Origin: an uncultured Gammaproteobacteria bacterium
Lineage (GTDB): Bacteria > Patescibacteriota > Microgenomatia > Levybacterales > GWA1-39-11
Reading direction: 5' to 3'
NCBI GenBank assembly: GCA_964504535.1
Contig: CAZDED010000003.1
Coordinates: forward strand, 70,850 to 134,849
DNA: 64,000 nucleotides
Of the stretch, positions 1-51,285 are shown in pieces. The position numbers and the translations under genes are program-made. The notes under the pieces were generated by a model. That model saw only the letters and a list, made by a program, of their open reading frames with translations. It was not told where the DNA came from and did no database searches. Position 1 is the stretch's first letter. Every line of letters starts with the position of its first letter.

Positions 1-717
1 GTTATTGATATTTCATCTGGCGAGAAGATTGAGAGCATCCTTACCTATTCACCTAAAAAGACGATGGGTGGAAAATTTGTATTCCTAGCTACCAAGAAAG
101 GAACTGTCAAAAAGACCTCTATCGATGACTTCGGAAATATCAGACGCAATGGAATTATTGCCATAAAACTTGACCCAAGTGATCAGTTGACCTGGGTTCG
201 TCTGTCATCAGGAACGGATGATGTTGTGCTTGTCACAAAGAAGGGTAAAATTATCTCATTTAAGGAAGAGCAAGTAAGAGAAACTGGCCGCTCATCGCAA
301 GGAGTAAGAGGTATTAAGATAGGAGCAGATGATGAGGTTGTTTCGATGGATTTGGTTGCTGGTGGCGACCGCGATGCAGAGCTTTTGGTTGTTGCCGAAA
401 ATGGTCTTGGGAAAAGAACAAAGGTTAGTGCTGTCAGAAATCAAAATAGAGGAGGGCAGGGTGTAAAAATTGCAAATCTTAATGTCAAAACAGGAGATCT
501 GATTTTCTCATCTGTTGTACCACAGCATTCTGCTCAAGTAATTATCACCTCCAAAAAAGGGCAGGTTGTAAGAATACCTCTTAAATCAGTCCCAGTTCTT
601 TCAAGAAATGCGCAAGGTGTAATTCTTATGCGCTTTACAGACAAAACAGAAAAAGTTGGATCTGCTGTAATGGTAACTGAAGAAGACAATTCTGAAGAAA
701 CACCAACCACCCCATAG
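1..717 (+). CDS. gyrA: DNA gyrase subunit A, C-terminal part (5' end outside window)
   Basis: Reading frame is open from base 1 into ORF 64..717; repeated GyrA-CTD beta-pinwheel motifs (GRSSQGVRGIKI, GQGVKIANL); acidic C-terminal tail. Confidence 0.8.
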   Translation, partial: VIDISSGEKIESILTYSPKKTMGGKFVFLATKKGTVKKTSIDDFGNIRRNGIIAIKLDPSDQLTWVRLSSGTDDVVLVTKKGKIISFKEEQVRETGRSSQGVRGIKIGADDEVVSMDLVAGGDRDAELLVVAENGLGKRTKVSAVRNQNRGGQGVKIANLNVKTGDLIFSSVVPQHSAQVIITSKKGQVVRIPLKSVPVLSRNAQGVILMRFTDKTEKVGSAVMVTEEDNSEETPTTP

Positions 718-837
718 TCTATTAATTGACCCCAAATAGTAGTATAATTACCTGCTCGTTGACAACGGATACGGTACAGTCTGTTCCTACGCCATTAGCG
801 TAACGTACGGATTGTTTTTCGTGACGATGAAACTGTA

Positions 838-1329
838 TTGAGGTTTAAAATGCAACGTGGATATAATCGTGACAGCAGACTAGCAACGATAGCAGGATTT
901 CTTATGGGTATAGGATTTGCCTTACCCTTCGAACTCCTCTTTGCTATTATTGCTGGAAAGGCCCATAACCGACTGATCTTGGGATGCACAGTAATGTGTG
1001 CAGTCGGGATTACAGGAATCGGATGGGGGATTTGGCTGCAAAGCTATTCTTCACACAAACTGTCCGGGTTCGCTCGGATTACAAGGTCCAGAAAGAGGGA
1101 AGAAGTGAATCGTAACGACAATCGCGAAACAAATCTGATGAGCTTTGGATGGATAATCCGTGCTCTAGGAATTTTCGTTTTGATGGGGGTCTGGTTAGTT
1201 GTGTTTGTTAAATTCACCCAAGGTAACCCCATCAACTTCATGATTGCATCTTACTTTATGCTAGGTGCAATCTTCCTGATGCTGCTCGGATATTGCCTCA
1301 GGAAATGGGGTATACACCGACGCGGCTAA
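838..1329 (+). CDS. small polytopic membrane protein (4 predicted TM helices) with elevated GC content; carries an internal copy of the GATTACAAGGTCC cassette repeat
   Basis: ORF track 163 aa; hydrophobic helices; nucleotide repeat at ~1073-1100 matches ~1345-1372. Confidence 0.4.
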   Translation: MRFKMQRGYNRDSRLATIAGFLMGIGFALPFELLFAIIAGKAHNRLILGCTVMCAVGITGIGWGIWLQSYSSHKLSGFARITRSRKREEVNRNDNRETNLMSFGWIIRALGIFVLMGVWLVVFVKFTQGNPINFMIASYFMLGAIFLMLLGYCLRKWGIHRRG

Positions 1330-1372
1330 CGTCCCCATCGAGTCCAACTCGATTACAAGGTCCTGAAGGAGT

Positions 1373-1552
1373 ATGGTCGTGACAAATGCAGTTAAGAATG
1401 CTGTCAAGGTCCTCATGGGAGAGGCACGCCGCGAGTTCGCAGAACTCAGTGATGAGGAGTGGAAGGAAACGACCATCGTGGTCGAATTTCTCCCAGGACT
1501 CGTCCTGGGAAAGTTTTCCATGAGAAAGTCCCATCAAGAGAAAGGAAAGTAA
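1373..1552 (+). CDS. small GC-rich ORF (59 aa, soluble, charged) inside cassette 1
   Basis: ATG preceded by GAAGGAG, very short spacing; below ORF-track length cutoff; found by manual translation. Confidence 0.2.
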   Translation: MVVTNAVKNAVKVLMGEARREFAELSDEEWKETTIVVEFLPGLVLGKFSMRKSHQEKGK

Positions 1553-1576
1553 CCGTATCCGGTAAAATCAACGACT

Positions 1577-1606
1577 GGCCCCGAAACCCGAGAGGGTGGA
1601 GGGGCC
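1577..1606 (+). ncRNA. nested hairpin motif copy 1: GGCCCC-GAAA-CCC-GAGA-GGG-UGGA-GGGGCC (GNRA tetraloop, tandem G.A internal loop)
   Basis: seen directly; near-identical copy at 2116..2145 with compensatory loop change. Confidence 0.5.
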
Positions 1607-1901
1607 AAAGTCTCTCTTCTTCCATTAAAACCATCTCTAACTTCTGACTACTATTCAAAAAATAAATCTAGCATTGTTTCCAAGATCTAAAACCTAAAAA
1701 CCAACAACCTAAAATAGGGAATGATACATCAGTAGAAAATCCAACTATTACAGCATGAAGTATTATTAACCTATAGTACAGTTTGCCCAAAAGGTATATA
1801 ATACGTAGGTTCGTTGAAATAGGTCACCCACCCAATTTGCCTCAATGCGTAGGCAGAAACAGTGGTAACGTTTTTCCCCATGACGGGACACAAGGAGGAT
1901 C

Positions 1902-2084
1902 ATGCTGCAAGCAATTATAACCATATCCTTATGCATGGGTGGTTCAATCCTAGGAGCTCTGTCATTGGAGCTCCTACAGCGCGGCCTTCATGGCTCGACG
2001 ACACAGCAATTCTTCAGGGCACTCAAGGGGGGAATATCCCTTTCTCTAATTGCCTTGGGGATATTCCTCATCTACACGCTGTAG
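1902..2084 (+). CDS. small 2-TM membrane peptide (60 aa) in GC-rich cassette 2
   Basis: strong RBS AAGGAGGA 5 nt upstream of ATG; two hydrophobic helices. Confidence 0.45.
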   Translation: MLQAIITISLCMGGSILGALSLELLQRGLHGSTTQQFFRALKGGISLSLIALGIFLIYTL

Positions 2085-2115
2085 ACAGAGGAAGTCTTGA
2101 CCCTTCAACGAATAT

Positions 2116-2145
2116 GGCCCCGATGCCCGCAAGGGTAGAGGGGCC
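2116..2145 (+). ncRNA. nested hairpin motif copy 2: GGCCCC-GAUG-CCC-GCAA-GGG-UAGA-GGGGCC
   Basis: seen directly; tetraloop GCAA versus GAGA in copy 1, both GNRA. Confidence 0.5.
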
Positions 2146-2157
2146 AAAGTCCAAAAA

Positions 2158-2205
2158 TAGTAGTTAGTAGTTAGAAGTTAGAAGTTAGAAGTTAGAATAT
2201 AATAC
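2158..2205. repeat. TAG-rich microsatellite-like spacer (agtagttagtagttagaagttagaagttagaa)
   Basis: seen directly; GTTAGAA x3; stop codons in several frames. Confidence 0.6.
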
Positions 2206-2209
2206 AACT

Positions 2210-3043
2210 ATGGAAATTAATGGTAAGCAAATTCAAGAAGAATTACTGGTCGATTTAAAACTTAGAATAGCAAACTTAAAAGAAAATGGAGTGACACCTT
2301 GCATTGCAATTGTGACACTAGGACCTGAAGAAACTTGGGAGGCGTATGTGGGACAGAAAATCAAACTTGCAAAAAAGCTTGATATAACAGCAAAACTTGT
2401 AAATCTTAGGCCCACAAATACGGATGACGTACTAGCGGCTATTTCAGAACTAAATTCCGATCCATCTATTCATGGGCTCATAGTCCAACGACCTTTTCCG
2501 ACATATATTGATACAGAAAGAATAATTCAAAGTATATCAAAAGAGAAAGATATCGACGGCTTTAGAAATGACTCTTTATACGAAGTCCCAGTCTGGTTAG
2601 CAGTCAAACACCTTATCAGTCAGGGATCAAAACTGCTAAATGCTCCTGAAATACAGTTTTGGCTGTCAAATCAATCTATTCTGGTCATTGGGAAGGGTGA
2701 AACCGCTGGTACTCCGATCATAAATGGACTCTCAAAAATGCAAATCAAAACTATGGTTATGGATAGCAAAACGTCTGATCGTAACAGTCTATTTGAAAAA
2801 GCAGACATCATAATTTTCGCAACAGGAAAACATATCGATGTACCCTACGAATTACTCAAAAAAAATTGTATCCTTATAGGAATTGGACTACATAGAACTG
2901 AGGGCAAATTAGTAGGTGATTTCGACGAATTTGAGGCTAAAAGTCACGGCTTATATTATACGCCATCACCAGGAGGGGTCGGACCCCTAAACCTCTATTA
3001 CCTTTTTGAAAATCTCGTAACGTCCGCAGAAAAATCCTCTTGA
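2210..3043 (+). CDS. folD: bifunctional methylenetetrahydrofolate dehydrogenase/cyclohydrolase
   Basis: length ~277 aa; FolD signature YTPSPGGVGPLN; NAD(P)-binding GKGETAG. Confidence 0.8.
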   Translation: MEINGKQIQEELLVDLKLRIANLKENGVTPCIAIVTLGPEETWEAYVGQKIKLAKKLDITAKLVNLRPTNTDDVLAAISELNSDPSIHGLIVQRPFPTYIDTERIIQSISKEKDIDGFRNDSLYEVPVWLAVKHLISQGSKLLNAPEIQFWLSNQSILVIGKGETAGTPIINGLSKMQIKTMVMDSKTSDRNSLFEKADIIIFATGKHIDVPYELLKKNCILIGIGLHRTEGKLVGDFDEFEAKSHGLYYTPSPGGVGPLNLYYLFENLVTSAEKSS

Positions 3044-39593: not shown

Positions 39594-40223
39594 TTGAGTA
39601 GTATATCGCATACTGCCTCTCTTGACAAGCAAACTGCCTCAAGGCTAAACTTAATTACTGCCATGGATGCCAAAAAAACAAATCTTACACCTGAGTTAAA
39701 AGAAATTTACGATAGAGTCATGAATACATCTGGTGCCAAGGCGGCAGCAACAGCTGGCACTACCCCACCACTACCCACTTCAGCCCCATCAGAACAGATT
39801 CCAACAGGTTCTTCTCAACCCGCGATGCCTGTCGGAGCATCTCCTGCCTCAATGCCAGGAATGCCTCCACCCCCAGTACCTCCATCCCTTAGCATGCCTC
39901 CCACACCAGTAGCACCTGTCGGAGCACCGGAACAACCTTCATCACTTCCCCCAATGAGTGGAATGCCTTCTATGGACAGTACGGCAGAACAAGCACTTAG
40001 TAGTACTCCAGCAAGACCAGTGAGCGAGGGTAATACTTTTTCATTTAGCGGTACTGCTCATCAACGCCCTACTGCTCCAGCAGTTCCAGGAGCGACACCA
40101 GCTGCAACGACAACAAAAAAGAAATCAAAAATTTCTCTACCGGTTCTTATTGTTCTAGGACTTGTATTTATAATCGTCTGGGGACTCTTCTGGGCAATTA
40201 TCTTTGGCTTTATTAAACGTTAG
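39594..40223 (+). CDS. Pro-rich protein with C-terminal TM anchor (start may be ATG ~39663)
   Basis: low-complexity PPPP/PAxP; C-terminal hydrophobic helix. Confidence 0.35.
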   Translation: MSSISHTASLDKQTASRLNLITAMDAKKTNLTPELKEIYDRVMNTSGAKAAATAGTTPPLPTSAPSEQIPTGSSQPAMPVGASPASMPGMPPPPVPPSLSMPPTPVAPVGAPEQPSSLPPMSGMPSMDSTAEQALSSTPARPVSEGNTFSFSGTAHQRPTAPAVPGATPAATTTKKKSKISLPVLIVLGLVFIIVWGLFWAIIFGFIKR

Positions 40224-40231
40224 TTGACGGG

Positions 40232-47183: not shown

Positions 47184-47315
47184 TTTCTAAAAAATAAAGA
47201 TATTTTCTACCTTTAGTAGTATAATCTAGCTAAATTTGAGGACAAACTAGCAGAAATGCTCTCCTAGCACGTTTTCATTTTTTATTTTACTTGCACATTG
47301 AAATTATTGGGAGAA

Positions 47316-47367
47316 GTCATATTCGACAATCAGGTTATATGCTTGTAGTTTGATTGTCGAATATGAC
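47316..47367. promoter_or_regulatory. perfect 17-bp inverted repeat GTCATATTCGACAATCA-N18-TGATTGTCGAATATGAC immediately upstream of RBS
   Basis: seen directly. Confidence 0.6.
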
Positions 47368-47384
47368 ACAGGAGGAAGTGAACT

Positions 47385-47531
47385 TTGTCTAGGAAAAAGG
47401 AGGTGGCACCACCCCTACCCAACTCGAAGGCTGCCCGCCAGGCTGCGTACAGGAAGATGACGAATTATGCACTGAGCATCGTCTTAGTACTGTACGTTGC
47501 CATCATGGCTACGGGCGCCATCATCAAGTAG
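47385..47531 (+). CDS. small GC-rich ORF, 48 aa, TTG start, single C-terminal TM helix
   Basis: GGAGG 9 nt upstream of TTG; GC-rich codons; hydrophobic YALSIVLVLYVAIMATGAII. Confidence 0.35.
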   Translation: MSRKKEVAPPLPNSKAARQAAYRKMTNYALSIVLVLYVAIMATGAIIK

Positions 47532-47679
47532 TCGTCTTCGTCTATGAGGACGTTAAAAATGGCGAAAAGGAGGGCTGGCTAACCGAGCCGCATCATAAGT
47601 GACTGAGGGAGTTGCACGAACACGCCCCGGGTTTTCCCGGGGCAACAGAACCACCCCGCGCAACGGGGGGAGGGAGAAC

Positions 47680-48021
47680 ATGTCACTCTTAAGAATCTTC
47701 GGATCGAAGAAGGCTCCAGCTGCGACCAAGGTCGTAGAAGCGCCTTACGTGCCGAAGAACACGCCGCCGCCTGGCTTCGTGCGCCTTTCCAAACCGGAAG
47801 GTGCAGACGACAAGGATCTTTGCGGAGATTACAACGGCTGGATTTGTCCGCCCGATCCGGATTGCACGATCTGCTTTTACGGCGGGTACATGAAGGTCGA
47901 CAACGACATCCAGGTTTGCGCCTGCCGACGCGCTGACGACAAGGTCAGAGCGAGCACGGCAGCTGCATCTGCAGCTGCAGAATCGCACAAGCTCTCCATG
48001 TCCAAGGGAAGCAAATCCTGA
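47680..48021 (+). CDS. GC-rich Cys-rich small protein (113 aa, 7 Cys)
   Basis: RBS GGGAGGGAG 4 nt upstream of ATG 47680 (internal Met of track ORF 47599..48021); CGDYNGWICPPDPDCTICF...CACRR. Confidence 0.5.
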   Translation: MSLLRIFGSKKAPAATKVVEAPYVPKNTPPPGFVRLSKPEGADDKDLCGDYNGWICPPDPDCTICFYGGYMKVDNDIQVCACRRADDKVRASTAAASAAAESHKLSMSKGSKS

Positions 48022-48061
48022 AGGCAGTCTTCCAACTCCCAGAGTTCTCTGTGCAAATCAG

Positions 48062-48094
48062 GCCACCTCCACCCAGGAGGTGGCCTTTTTTGTA
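48062..48094 (+). terminator. intrinsic terminator GGCCACCTCC-ACCCA-GGAGGTGGCC + TTTTTT
   Basis: seen directly. Confidence 0.75.
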
Positions 48095-48132
48095 TTGTGA
48101 TAAGGACCCCACATCAAGTACAGGGTGACAGT

Positions 48133-50479: not shown

Positions 50480-51250
50480 AACGCTTTCCCGCTTATACGG
50501 GCACTTTTATATACATTTGCATGTTCCACCCGCTTGTCGGGTGTTTCATAATCCATATGAAGAGGTTAGACATGTAGGAGCGCCCACACAGCCGCATCAT
50601 CATCAGAAGCAGGCAGACACCCGTAAGGGTCTGTCCGACAACATCAAGCCTGCCATCTTGGCGGTAACGTCTGAATACTCAAGTGGGTGATGGACGGGGG
50701 GACTGACCCCGTCCTGATCCTCAGATAGGGATTTAGTGGGTTACCTGATTCACGAATATCAGGTAATTTTCGCTGAGTTTCTACCAACACCCTTGATCGC
50801 ACGTGATCCAGAAGTTTTAGTTGCACATAGATGTGACTATTCCTCCGACTTGAGTTATAGGCTGGATCTCTGGCCTAGCCCTATCCGCTTTTCCCGCTGC
50901 AGATAAGCAGCACGATTTAGGAAAGTGGGAGAGGCCACTTTCAAACGGGACGAGCCAACTACCTCTGGGTTTCTACCGTCTTGTCGGCTCGTCCCACCTC
51001 TAGACGGGTTCAGTGCAGGCGTAAGGGCCTGCACTTCCCCTCTTCCCGGGGGGAGGTGGGTGCGATACCACCTCCCCCTATGGGGACATGCAAATGACTA
51101 GACACATCCTGTCTGCCATCGCTTAATGAGCGCAAGCGAAATTGGGCGGACCGTGATTGATCAGGGAGCTTTTTTAGGCTCCCAATTCTTGCTCCCGCCG
51201 GCGCCTCTGACAGAGAACCGGCGGGAGTCATACAACAATTTCCCACACAA
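50480..51250 (+). ncRNA. GC-rich, ORF-free, hairpin-dense candidate large structured ncRNA of unknown class (strand assigned from GNRA tetraloop orientation)
   Basis: >=8 stem-loops seen directly (e.g. 50614-50633, 50694-50716, 50925-50945, 50947-50995, 51010-51035, 51163-51183, 51192-51222); GUAA/GCAA loops. Confidence 0.45.
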
Positions 51251-51285
51251 AAATTTCTGTTTAAAGTTTGAAATAATCGTTTAGG

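What the first reader, a model, noticed from the sequence alone, without database searches (positions are those of the whole stretch)
838..2160. Tandem array of GC-rich mini-cassettes: small membrane peptides with a shared 5' repeat and a covarying nested 3' hairpin
Three consecutive units have higher GC than the backbone. A 22-nt repeat CGATTACAAGGTCC(A/T)GAA(A/G)GAG occurs at about 1073-1100, inside the 163-aa membrane ORF, and again at about 1345-1372, where it supplies the RBS for a 59-aa ORF. Cassettes at about 1330-1612 and about 1850-2150 begin with TAACGT(C/TTTT)CCCCAT and end with a near-identical 30-nt nested hairpin, GGCCCC-GAAA-CCC-GAGA-GGG-UGGA-GGGGCC versus GGCCCC-GAUG-CCC-GCAA-GGG-UAGA-GGGGCC. 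The GNRA tetraloop and a tandem G.A internal loop are preserved through compensatory changes, which argues for selection on RNA structure. Each cassette encodes a different small protein of about 60 aa. Two of them are two-helix membrane peptides, and the 1902..2084 one has a perfect AAGGAGGA RBS. The RBS context GACACA(A)GGAGGA recurs at the 47.3-kb island. This architecture is typical of type I toxin/antitoxin arrays, holin-like peptides or bacteriocin/immunity cassettes. The sequences match nothing I recognise.
Basis: partly seen in the sequence, partly recalled or inferred. Interest (0 to 1): 0.75.

Follow-up and report, generated by a model that had tools for sequence, protein, structure and literature searches.

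The report
End-paired mRNA frame carrying small-protein cassettes
Between gyrA and folD this uncultured bacterium and its closest relatives carry a small operon whose RNA is closed by conserved pairing of its two ends; inside that fixed RNA frame, small membrane peptides are swapped or duplicated between strains, next to a conserved 57-59-residue protein of unknown function.

Summary
There are two transcription units, not three cassettes. U1 (about 743-1612) has a promoter and a structured leader. It encodes a 159-aa ORF that is two 2-TM peptides fused through an intercistronic module, then a 59-aa soluble protein B. U2 (about 1797-2151) has a promoter, a leader and a 60-aa 2-TM peptide.

Seven related lineages carry the same unit upstream of folD. 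In all of them the first ~20 nt of the transcript (H1, H2) pair with the ~25 nt between the last stop codon and the GGCCCC hairpin, with compensatory changes. In U2, H2 is replaced by an unrelated complementary pair.

The outer stem of the 30-nt hairpin never varies.

B is under purifying selection and has no known relatives. The peptides evolve fast, and the coding interior is exchanged between near-identical strains.

The closest analogy is the hok and AapA1 type I toxin mRNAs. No antisense promoter or SD switch was found, so membership is not established. No database matched. Function is inferred, not shown.

The parts
743..748 (+). U1 promoter -10 box TATAAT, within AGTAGTATAAT, which all related units share
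   Evidence: Read from sequence. GTAGTATAAT is conserved in every related locus that reaches that far (28 of 30).
756..775 (+). U1 5' closing strands: H1a UCGUUGA (756-762) and H2a CGGAUACGGU (766-775). They start about 8 nt after the -10 box, at the inferred 5' end of the transcript.
   Evidence: Cofold -26.8 kcal/mol against -11.8+-2.6 for shuffles. RNAalifold predicts the pairing on an alignment not fitted to structure. Covariation counted. The exact 10-mer inverted repeat is found.
776..820 (+). U1 leader nested hairpin: outer stem 776-784/807-815, inner stem 788-792/798-802, then U5 at 816-820. It looks like a terminator or attenuator.
   Evidence: helices 3 and 4, 98-99% of cells paired, 8 pairs with changes on both sides. 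Folds of the isolated leaders.
850..1329 (+). 159-aa ORF with four hydrophobic segments. It reads as two 2-TM peptides, A1 and A2, joined in frame through intercistronic module IC1. An internal GTG at 1105 follows AGAGGG and could start a separate 74-aa A2.
   Evidence: The layout matches L144, which has A-IC-A'-IC-B. No homologue beyond identical copies. No family match.
1063..1089 (+). Intercistronic module IC1: hairpin UCCGGG-UUCG-CUCGGA followed by UUACAAGGUCC. Here it is translated as part of the fused ORF.
1338..1371 (+). Intercistronic module IC2: hairpin UCGAGU-CCA-ACUCGA, then UUACAAGGUCC, then SD GAAGGAG before the ATG of B.
   Evidence: 98% of cells paired, 3 of 6 pairs changed on both sides across 10 copies.
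1373..1552 (+). Protein B, 59 aa, soluble. It is conserved in all related units.
   Evidence: dN/dS 0.07-0.45. The family has only 7 clusters among 5.8e9 and 2 representatives among 1.84e9. The AF2 model has pLDDT 75, with a long helix, a short helix and a beta hairpin. No fold match.
1552..1574 (+). U1 3' closing strands: H2b ACCGUAUCCG (1552-1561, starting in the stop codon of B) and H1b AUCAACGA (1567-1574).
1577..1612 (+). U1 3'-terminal nested hairpin GGCCCC-GAAA-CCC-GAGA-GGG-UGGA-GGGGCC plus tail AAAGUC. GUC at 1610-1612 pairs with GAC at 1573-1575. There is no U tract.
   Evidence: (columns 636-638 with 674-676: GAC/GUC changes to AGC/GCU).
1613..1796 (.). AT-rich spacer between the two units. 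It holds an inverted copy (1636-1655) of the TAGTAGTTAGAAGTTAGA repeat found at 2156-2196.
   Evidence: I1-I4.
1797..1802 (+). U2 promoter -10 box TATAAT
   Evidence: Read from sequence.
1809..1826 (+). U2 5' closing strands: H1a GUUCGUUGAA (1809-1818) and H2a GGUCA (1822-1826).
   Evidence: (present in the MFE of the whole unit).
1828..1875 (+). U2 leader hairpin (CCAC/GUGG and UUUGCCU/AGGCAGA), followed by UAACG and then U5 at 1871-1875.
   Evidence: R2 match at 50 bits.
1902..2084 (+). 60-aa ORF with two hydrophobic segments. AAGGAGGA lies at 1892-1899, which is very short spacing. No homologue was available to test whether it is coding. Another gene caller chose a 78-aa frame at 1931-2167.
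2098..2113 (+). U2 3' closing strands: H2b UGACC (2098-2102) and H1b UUCAACGAAU (2104-2113).
2116..2151 (+). U2 3'-terminal nested hairpin plus AAAGUC.

Best explanation
The region holds two copies of a clade-specific small-protein transcription unit. Its RNA is built as a closed frame.

Shown:
- A strong -10 promoter is followed within about 8 nt by two strands, H1a and H2a.
- These pair with two strands, H2b and H1b, lying between the last stop codon and a very stable GC hairpin at the 3' end.
- The 5' end is therefore buried in a bipartite helix of 15-18 bp that stacks next to the 3'-terminal hairpin.
- Behind H2a sits a nested hairpin, followed in most lineages by a U-run.
- Each downstream cistron is preceded by a hairpin, then AUUACAAGGUC, then an SD.

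The cargo is one to three fast-evolving peptides of 60-100 aa with two hydrophobic segments. In U1-type units there is also a conserved 57-59-aa soluble protein B.

Inferred:
- The end pairing and 3' hairpin define and protect the transcript ends. They block 5'-end-dependent RNases and 3' exonucleases, and perhaps help termination without a U tract, as reported for AapA1. This would keep a compact, long-lived and tightly controlled mRNA.
- A ribosome finishing B would have to melt H2, because the stop codon overlaps H2b. Translation and closure would then be coupled.
- The conserved frame serves as homology arms that let strains swap the peptide cargo.
- The peptides are probably membrane-active effectors of a toxin-like or competition kind, with B as their partner. 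This last step is the weakest.
For: Synteny and homology:
- Seven distinct lineages have the unit directly upstream of folD. gyrA precedes it in most of them, and another gene intervenes in L148 and L150.

End pairing:
- Cofold energies are -19 to -29 kcal/mol, against -10 to -13 (sd about 2.5) for shuffles.
- RNAalifold predicts it on a sequence-only MAFFT alignment of full-length units. Compensatory pairs are 12/630 (CG, UA, AU), 16/622 (GC, UA, AU) and 17/621 (GC, AU).
- On the nine-copy alignment, 96.7% of cells pair. 15 pairs change on both sides, against 4.0+-1.5 in shuffles (0 of 500). Partners slid by 1-3 columns pair in only 31-42% of cells.
- In U2, H2 is replaced by GGUCA/UGACC while H1 is kept.
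- The MFE structures of whole U1 and U2 contain the closure, with z-scores of -5.8 and -6.2.
- The ensemble keeps the 5' 25 nt 77-89% paired.
- 21 G.U cells make the + strand 96.9% paired against 90.3% for the - strand, which points to RNA rather than a DNA repeat.

Other points:
- The intercistronic hairpin covaries.
- Coding: B has dN/dS 0.07-0.45, A has 0.2-0.68, and L146 has an in-frame 48-nt insertion.
- Cargo swap.
- One 5' element and one 3' element occur per unit and nowhere else.
- Precedents for end-paired toxin mRNAs: PMC9841398, PMC5416894.
Against: - There are no expression data, so transcript ends and processing are inferred from a -10 box and a hairpin.
- The 3' hairpin lacks a U tract and its outer stem is invariant, so it could equally be a protein-binding or DNA-level site.
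- Predicted accessibility of the A and B ribosome-binding sites is the same with and without the 3' partner strands. A translational role for the closure therefore has no computational support.
- Only about 7 lineages exist, several of them closely related.
- The U2 row of alignment A8 was fitted by hand to the structure.
- Nothing indicates what the proteins do. No family or fold match was found.
- The U2 ORF has no homologue to confirm that it is coding.
Confidence: 0.6

Rival explanations
1. It is a true type I toxin-antitoxin locus of the hok/Sok or AapA1/IsoA1 kind. The membrane peptide would be a toxin. The full-length end-paired mRNA would be inert, 3' trimming would activate it, and an undetected small antisense RNA would neutralise it.
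For: - The mRNA has 5'-3' end pairing, which is the hallmark of hok and AapA1 (PMC9841398, PMC5416894).
- The peptides are small and hydrophobic.
- H1a has an alternative proximal partner just upstream of the first SD in 6 of 7 isolated U1-type leader folds. This resembles tac/ucb.
- The locus is strain-variable.
- U2 consists of only the frame plus a peptide.
Against: - No -10-like hexamer is shared by three or more of five lineages on the minus strand, and there is no minus-strand terminator.
- RBS accessibility is unchanged when the 3' strands are masked.
- The peptides are 60-100 aa with two TM segments.
- The unit is polycistronic and includes a conserved soluble protein.
- Toxicity is untested.
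Confidence: 0.2
2. The RNA itself is the product, a structured regulatory RNA of 350-900 nt, and the ORFs are incidental.
For: - Folding z-scores are very negative, -5.8 and -6.2.
- GC is enriched in an AT-rich genome.
- The frame is more conserved than the interior.
- Gene callers skip or disagree on the ORFs.
Against: - B has dN/dS as low as 0.07-0.12 at dS about 0.65.
- The one long indel in A is in frame (48 nt), and every ORF has an SD at the proper distance.
- The interior can be replaced by unrelated coding sequence while the frame persists.
- There is no Rfam match.
Confidence: 0.1
3. H1/H2 are a processing stem, like the RNase III stems that flank rRNAs. Cleavage there would release or destroy the mRNA rather than protect it.
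For: The two ends form a long, nearly continuous duplex of 10 plus 7-8 bp. Its sequence is conserved beyond what pairing needs.
Against: The helix is shorter than two full turns and is interrupted by an asymmetric internal loop.
Confidence: 0.07
4. It is a DNA-level mobile cassette, such as an integron attC-type cassette, a MITE, or an IS with terminal inverted repeats. The inverted repeats would be recombination sites.
For: Inverted repeats bracket an exchangeable interior. The window has a second unit flanked by inverted AT-rich repeats. A tyrosine recombinase gene lies about 5 kb downstream in all loci.
Against: - G.U pairs are tolerated only on the + strand.
- The helices begin right at the inferred transcription start.
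- There is one unit per locus at a fixed genomic site, and no other copies in 64 kb or in the relatives' flanks.
- There is no GTTRRRY core site at the unit ends.
- There are no relatives in viral contigs.
Confidence: 0.03

Closest known systems
hok/Sok type I toxin-antitoxin mRNA (tac/fbi fold-back)
   Same: A small hydrophobic peptide is encoded on a compact mRNA whose extreme 5' end pairs with a 3'-proximal element. The 5' strand also has an alternative proximal partner. Described in PMC9841398.
   Different: No Sok-like antisense gene was found. There is no mok-type overlapping reading frame. The peptides have two TM segments and 60-100 aa. There are several cistrons separated by a dedicated hairpin module, plus a conserved soluble protein. 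Predicted SD accessibility is independent of the closure.
AapA1/IsoA1 of Helicobacter pylori
   Same: The 5'-3' end pairing is about 11 bp, and there it is reported to drive termination. Successive local structures form in the nascent leader (PMC5416894). Here the equivalents are a 10-bp H2 plus a 7-8-bp H1, a 3' end without a U tract, and a local leader fold.
   Different: AapA1 is a 30-aa monocistronic toxin with a mapped antisense RNA. Neither feature is seen here.
Staphylococcus aureus RNAIII (from my own knowledge, not checked here)
   Same: It is a highly structured RNA of several hundred nt whose 5' and 3' regions are joined by long-range helices. It also encodes a small membrane-active peptide, delta-haemolysin.
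   Different: RNAIII acts mainly as an antisense regulator, and nothing here suggests trans targets. A search for H2a with up to 1 mismatch found two other near-matches (15799 and 32511), which were not examined. There is no sequence or Rfam similarity.
Rho-independent terminator
   Same: A GC-rich hairpin lies at the end of the last cistron.
   Different: No U tract follows it. The hairpin is nested with a purine-rich 4x4 internal loop, usually has a GNRA loop, and is extended by a GAC/GUC helix. Its sequence is almost invariant across lineages.
Integron gene cassettes
   Same: Short promoterless-looking ORFs are bracketed by conserved structured sequence, and the content is exchanged between strains.
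   Different: There are no attC R'/R'' core sites at the unit ends and no dispersed array. IntI was not examined. The pairing is RNA-like (G.U) and begins at the transcription start.

Membership tests
Type I toxin-antitoxin (hok/Sok-like, AapA1/IsoA1-like) | Small hydrophobic toxin ORF, typically under 60 aa with one TM helix | tested here: inconclusive
   The ORFs are hydrophobic but have 60-102 aa and two hydrophobic segments (four in the fused 159-aa ORF).
Type I toxin-antitoxin (hok/Sok-like, AapA1/IsoA1-like) | Cis-encoded antisense RNA antitoxin with its own promoter | tested here: not met
   No -10-like hexamer is shared by 3 or more of 5 lineages on the minus strand inside the unit. 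There is no minus-strand hairpin plus U-run (and sequence). This is in silico only and RNA-seq is needed.
Type I toxin-antitoxin (hok/Sok-like, AapA1/IsoA1-like) | Long-range 5'-3' pairing that closes the full-length mRNA | tested here: met
Type I toxin-antitoxin (hok/Sok-like, AapA1/IsoA1-like) | SD sequestered in the closed form and released after 3' processing | tested here: inconclusive
   The unpaired probability of the RBS is 0.24-0.57 and is essentially unchanged when the 3' strands are masked. This is thermodynamic prediction only.
Type I toxin-antitoxin (hok/Sok-like, AapA1/IsoA1-like) | Peptide is toxic when expressed | not testable with these tools
   Needs inducible expression.
Rho-independent terminator (the 30-nt hairpin) | GC-rich stem immediately followed by a U tract | tested here: not met
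   The stem is present, but the tail is AAAGUC(U/C)C in all copies. A canonical terminator exists elsewhere in the window at 48061-48092.
Integron cassette / attC | R''/R' core sites (RYYYAAC ... GTTRRRY) at the cassette ends | tested here: not met
   GTTRRRY occurs only at 1207, inside an ORF. RYYYAAC occurs at 1342 and 1739. Neither lies at a unit end.
Dispersed repeat (REP/MITE) | Many copies at unrelated sites | tested here: not met
   Covariance models R1 and R2 find only the copies belonging to the units, in 145 kb of window and relatives. The hairpin pattern occurs twice in 64 kb.
Any Rfam 15 family | Score at or above the gathering threshold | tested here: not met
   Only two tRNAs are found in the window. 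Nothing relevant appears at E up to 10 in 600-2400.
Holin, bacteriocin or defence protein families | Match to a Pfam, NCBIfam, PHROGs or PADLOC model | tested here: not met
   no hit reaches a curated cut-off or is significant.

The most novel reading that the evidence does not exclude
The conserved 5' leader and 3' clamp form a reusable RNA expression frame. This would be a new kind of cassette system in which homologous recombination between the frame halves swaps small membrane-peptide genes among strains. The frame itself would gate expression. A short leader RNA ending at the U-run carries H1a and H2a and could compete in trans for the 3' clamp of full-length transcripts. That would make it a sense-strand, self-derived regulator in place of the antisense RNA of type I systems. 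Translation of B through H2b would reopen the loop.
Probability: 0.15. Interest if true: 0.8.

Novelty: new variant of a known kind. Interest (0 to 1): 0.55.

Why it matters
- Conserved pairing of the two ends of a bacterial mRNA is documented for few systems, essentially the hok-type and AapA1-type toxins. This case is supported by covariation, is polycistronic, and comes from an uncultured lineage, so it would widen that class.
- It shows a modular grammar of leader, intercistronic hairpin module and 3' clamp that could be searched for elsewhere.
- It adds an orphan, clearly selected 57-59-aa protein family and a set of fast-evolving small membrane proteins that gene callers mostly miss. No gene was called in the gyrA-folD interval of L140 or L144.
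- The frame-and-cargo pattern between near-identical strains marks this locus as being under diversifying selection. That is useful for studying strain-level competition in the communities these metagenome contigs come from.
- The distribution is narrow, limited to relatives with FolD at least 83% identical. That limits general importance.

Tried and rejected
- **Loose hairpin pattern against genome contigs.** It returned 120 GC-rich, mostly actinobacterial chance hairpins, and none had the full motif. That scan was wasted, so the organism's name could not be recovered.
- **Specific hairpin pattern against JGI metagenomes.** No hits.
- **Viral contig scans with the hairpin and with the H2b-H1b motif.** Chance hits only.
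- **Homology search with the 159-aa ORF.** Only itself.
- **B profile against 1.84e9 representatives.** No distant relatives. The two weak hits, at E 4e-6 and 8e-4, are to long proteins over 20-30 residues.
- **Prior reports.** A literature search for type I toxin-antitoxin together with Patescibacteria found no paper.
- **hok-like SD switch.** Not supported by partition-function calculations.
- **Antisense promoter search.** Negative.
- **Link to the 47.3-kb island.** Rejected. The two share only the promoter consensus and an SD context.
- **Local hairpin ACCG-UAUC-CGGU as an alternative to H2.** Rejected, because L140 breaks it (ACCG..AGGU) while compensating in the long-range helix.
Full report
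**1. What the sequence shows**

Window 1-717 is the C-terminus of GyrA and 2210-3043 is FolD. Between them lie 1.5 kb with GC of 0.45-0.53, against 0.39 for the window.

They are embedded in a 37-nt repeat. The 21-nt repeat is at 1077-1097 and 1351-1371.

The ORFs are 850-1329, 1373-1552 and 1902-2084.
- 850-1329 is 159 aa from the ATG that has a well-spaced GAGG.
- 1373-1552 is 59 aa.
- 1902-2084 is 60 aa.

Rfam, Pfam, NCBIfam, PHROGs and PADLOC give nothing.

Contigs from five independent samples are 100% identical over this region. This rules out an assembly chimera.

**2. Relatives**

The 159-aa ORF has no homologue. I therefore reached relatives through FolD and fetched their contigs.

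Relatives with FolD 83-90% identical keep the order gyrB-ppa-gyrA-[670-940 nt]-folD. Gene callers called no gene there in two lineages and only the first peptide in a third, yet it is homologous to window 730-2200.

Searching with protein B added more loci. This gave seven distinct versions:
- the window
- L148
- L150
- L140
- L144
- L146
- the L147/149/160/161 group

More distant relatives have no unit. Those with FolD 72-75% identical have only 53-97 nt between gyrA and folD. One with FolD 80% identical has a helicase gene next to folD. The unit is therefore a clade-specific insertion.

**3. Anatomy of a unit, about 612-624 nt in the simple form**

The elements, in order:
- a promoter, AGTAGTATAAT
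- strands H1a (UCGUUGA) and H2a (CGGAUACGGU), starting a few nt after the -10 box
- a nested hairpin, followed by U5-8 in most lineages
- an SD and a peptide A of about 70 aa with two hydrophobic segments
- an intercistronic module: a 6-bp hairpin, then AUUACAAGGUC(C), then an SD
- protein B, 56-59 aa
- strands H2b (ACCGUAUCCG, overlapping the stop codon) and H1b (UCAACGA)
- the GGCCCC...GGGGCC hairpin and the tail AAAGUC
- the folD promoter 15-25 nt further on

L144 has A, a second peptide A' and B, with two intercistronic modules.

Window U1 has the same three-cistron layout, 862 nt against 888 nt. The stop codon before the first module is missing, so A1, the module and A2 read as one 159-aa ORF. 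An internal GTG at 1105 lies behind AGAGGG.

Window U2 (1797-2151) is a second, shorter unit. It has a promoter, H1a, a different H2a, a leader hairpin with a U-run, a 60-aa 2-TM ORF, H2b, H1b and the hairpin. It has no B.

L148 is among the closest relatives (B 81-83% identical). It has a single unit whose 3' flank matches the flank after window U2.

**4. The end pairing**

H1a/H2a are complementary to H2b/H1b in every lineage.

| Lineage | H2a (start) | H2b (end) |
|---|---|---|
| window, L147, L148 | CGG.. | ..CCG |
| L140 | CUG.. | ..CAG |
| L144, L146 | CAG.. | ..CUG |
| L150 | CGA.. | ..UCG |

In window U2, H1 is 9-10 bp (UUCGUUGAA/UUCAACGAA). H2 is replaced by the unrelated pair GGUCA/UGACC.

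Supporting numbers:
- Cofold energies are -19 to -29 kcal/mol, against about -10 to -13 (sd about 2.5) for shuffled partners.
- RNAalifold on a MAFFT alignment of seven full-length units, not fitted to any structure, predicts H1, H2, the leader hairpin and the intercistronic hairpin. It also predicts a 3-bp helix, GAC/GUC changing to AGC/GCU, that explains the conserved AAAGTC.
- On a nine-copy alignment, 96.7% of cells pair. 15 pairs change on both sides, against 4.0+-1.5 in shuffles (0 of 500). Slid controls pair in 31-42% of cells. The U2 row of that alignment was placed by hand.
- The intercistronic hairpin is 98% paired, with 3 of 6 pairs changed on both sides.
- 21 G.U cells make the structure fit the + strand (96.9%) better than the - strand (90.3%). 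This argues for RNA rather than DNA inverted repeats.
- Whole U1 and U2 fold with the closure in the MFE, at z = -5.8 and -6.2.
- Covariance models of the 5' leader and the 3' element find exactly one of each per unit and nothing else in 145 kb.

The tetraloop is GNRA in all lineages except the L147 group, which has a 4-bp inner stem and a triloop.

**5. Coding**

B is under clear purifying selection. Its dN/dS is 0.07-0.45, for example dS 0.67 and dN 0.08 between the window and L148.

A evolves faster, with dN/dS 0.2-0.68, and has an in-frame 48-nt insertion in L146.

B has 7 clusters among 5.8e9 proteins and 2 representatives among 1.84e9. Its AF2 model has pLDDT 75, with a long helix, a short helix and a beta hairpin. 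It matches no solved fold.

The window's A1, A2 and U2 peptides have no detectable similarity to the canonical A.

L144 and L146 have folD 100% identical, the leader 94.5% and the 3' end 98.8%. Their interiors are 47% identical, and B is only 23-25% identical. The frame is fixed and the cargo is exchanged.

**6. Mechanism**

Shown: a transcript-sized RNA frame whose ends pair, a leader hairpin that usually carries a U-run, and a modular hairpin-plus-SD element before each downstream cistron.

Inferred: end protection and definition of the 3' end. In AapA1 the 5'-3' helix is reported to drive termination. In hok the tac/fbi helix stabilises an inert full-length mRNA.

Isolated U1-type leaders fold with H1a paired to the segment just after the U-run in 6 of 7 cases. 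H1a therefore has a proximal and a distal partner, as tac does.

Two results count against a strict hok-like model:
- Masking the 3' strands does not change the predicted accessibility of either RBS.
- No antisense promoter is conserved.

I therefore describe it as working like an end-paired type I toxin mRNA, but I do not file it as a member.

The stop codon of B overlaps H2b, and in L146 the ORF runs through H2b. A terminating ribosome must therefore open H2. This suggests that translation and closure are coupled.

**7. Novelty and verdict**

This is a new variant of a known kind, the end-paired mRNAs for small hydrophobic peptides. Its unreported features are:
- a polycistronic layout
- a dedicated intercistronic module
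- an orphan conserved partner protein
- cargo swapping inside a conserved frame

Function is unknown and the distribution is narrow. The organism could not be named with the scans I had left.

Noticed in passing
window 50500-51260: A GC-rich stretch of about 750 nt (0.53-0.62) with no convincing ORF and many GC hairpins. Rfam gives nothing near threshold (best hit ar7 at 28.6 bits, against a gathering score of 60), and ARAGORN finds nothing. It is probably an unidentified structured RNA.
   Followed up: partly
window 47218-48095: A second GC-rich island. It has a TAGTATAAT promoter and a perfect 17-bp inverted repeat (about 47318-47366) immediately before GACACAGGAGGA. It encodes a 48-aa peptide with a C-terminal hydrophobic segment (47385-47531) and a Cys-rich ORF (140 aa as listed from GTG 47599; about 113 aa from ATG 47681) ending at 48021. 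It ends in a canonical terminator (about 48061-48092). It is not homologous to the gyrA-folD unit.
   Followed up: partly
window 2198-2212 and the equivalent sites in L140, L144, L147: The folD ATG lies only 6-7 nt after its TATAAT box in the window and in the relatives L140, L144, L147 and L150. The folD mRNA is therefore probably leaderless.
   Followed up: no
window 2156-2196 and 1636-1655: A 7-nt tandem repeat (TAGTAGT/TAGAAGT) lies upstream of the folD promoter. An inverted copy at 1636-1655 means that unit 2 is bracketed by inverted AT-rich repeats. L148 has a related TTAGAAGTTAG tract at the same place.
   Followed up: partly
L144:4171-4917 versus L146:206-688: Two contigs have 100% identical folD and 99.7% identical downstream DNA, but their peptide and B cassettes are unrelated (47% identity) inside the same RNA frame.
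   Followed up: yes
L166:1660-1821 and L167:955-1775: In these two short ENA contigs the unit and its downstream TATAAT are not followed by an intact folD. L167 has a TPR-protein gene there. L166 diverges from folD after its first few codons. This could be a rearrangement or a misassembly.
   Followed up: no
window 39650-40225: An ORF rich in Pro, Ala, Ser and Thr, of low complexity, with a C-terminal hydrophobic segment. It accounts for the GC peak at 39.7-40.0 kb.
   Followed up: no
window 1078-1089, 1352-1363 and all related loci: AUUACAAGGUC(C) after every intercistronic hairpin is almost invariant, yet no conserved pairing partner was found for it. CAAGGUCC also recurs at codons 11-14 of B (1405-1418).
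   Followed up: partly
L148:1-900 and L150:945-2045: In the L148 and L150 lineages a minus-strand gene of about 366 aa with no Pfam hit sits upstream of the unit, between gyrA and the unit in L150. The unit therefore stays with folD rather than with gyrA.
   Followed up: no
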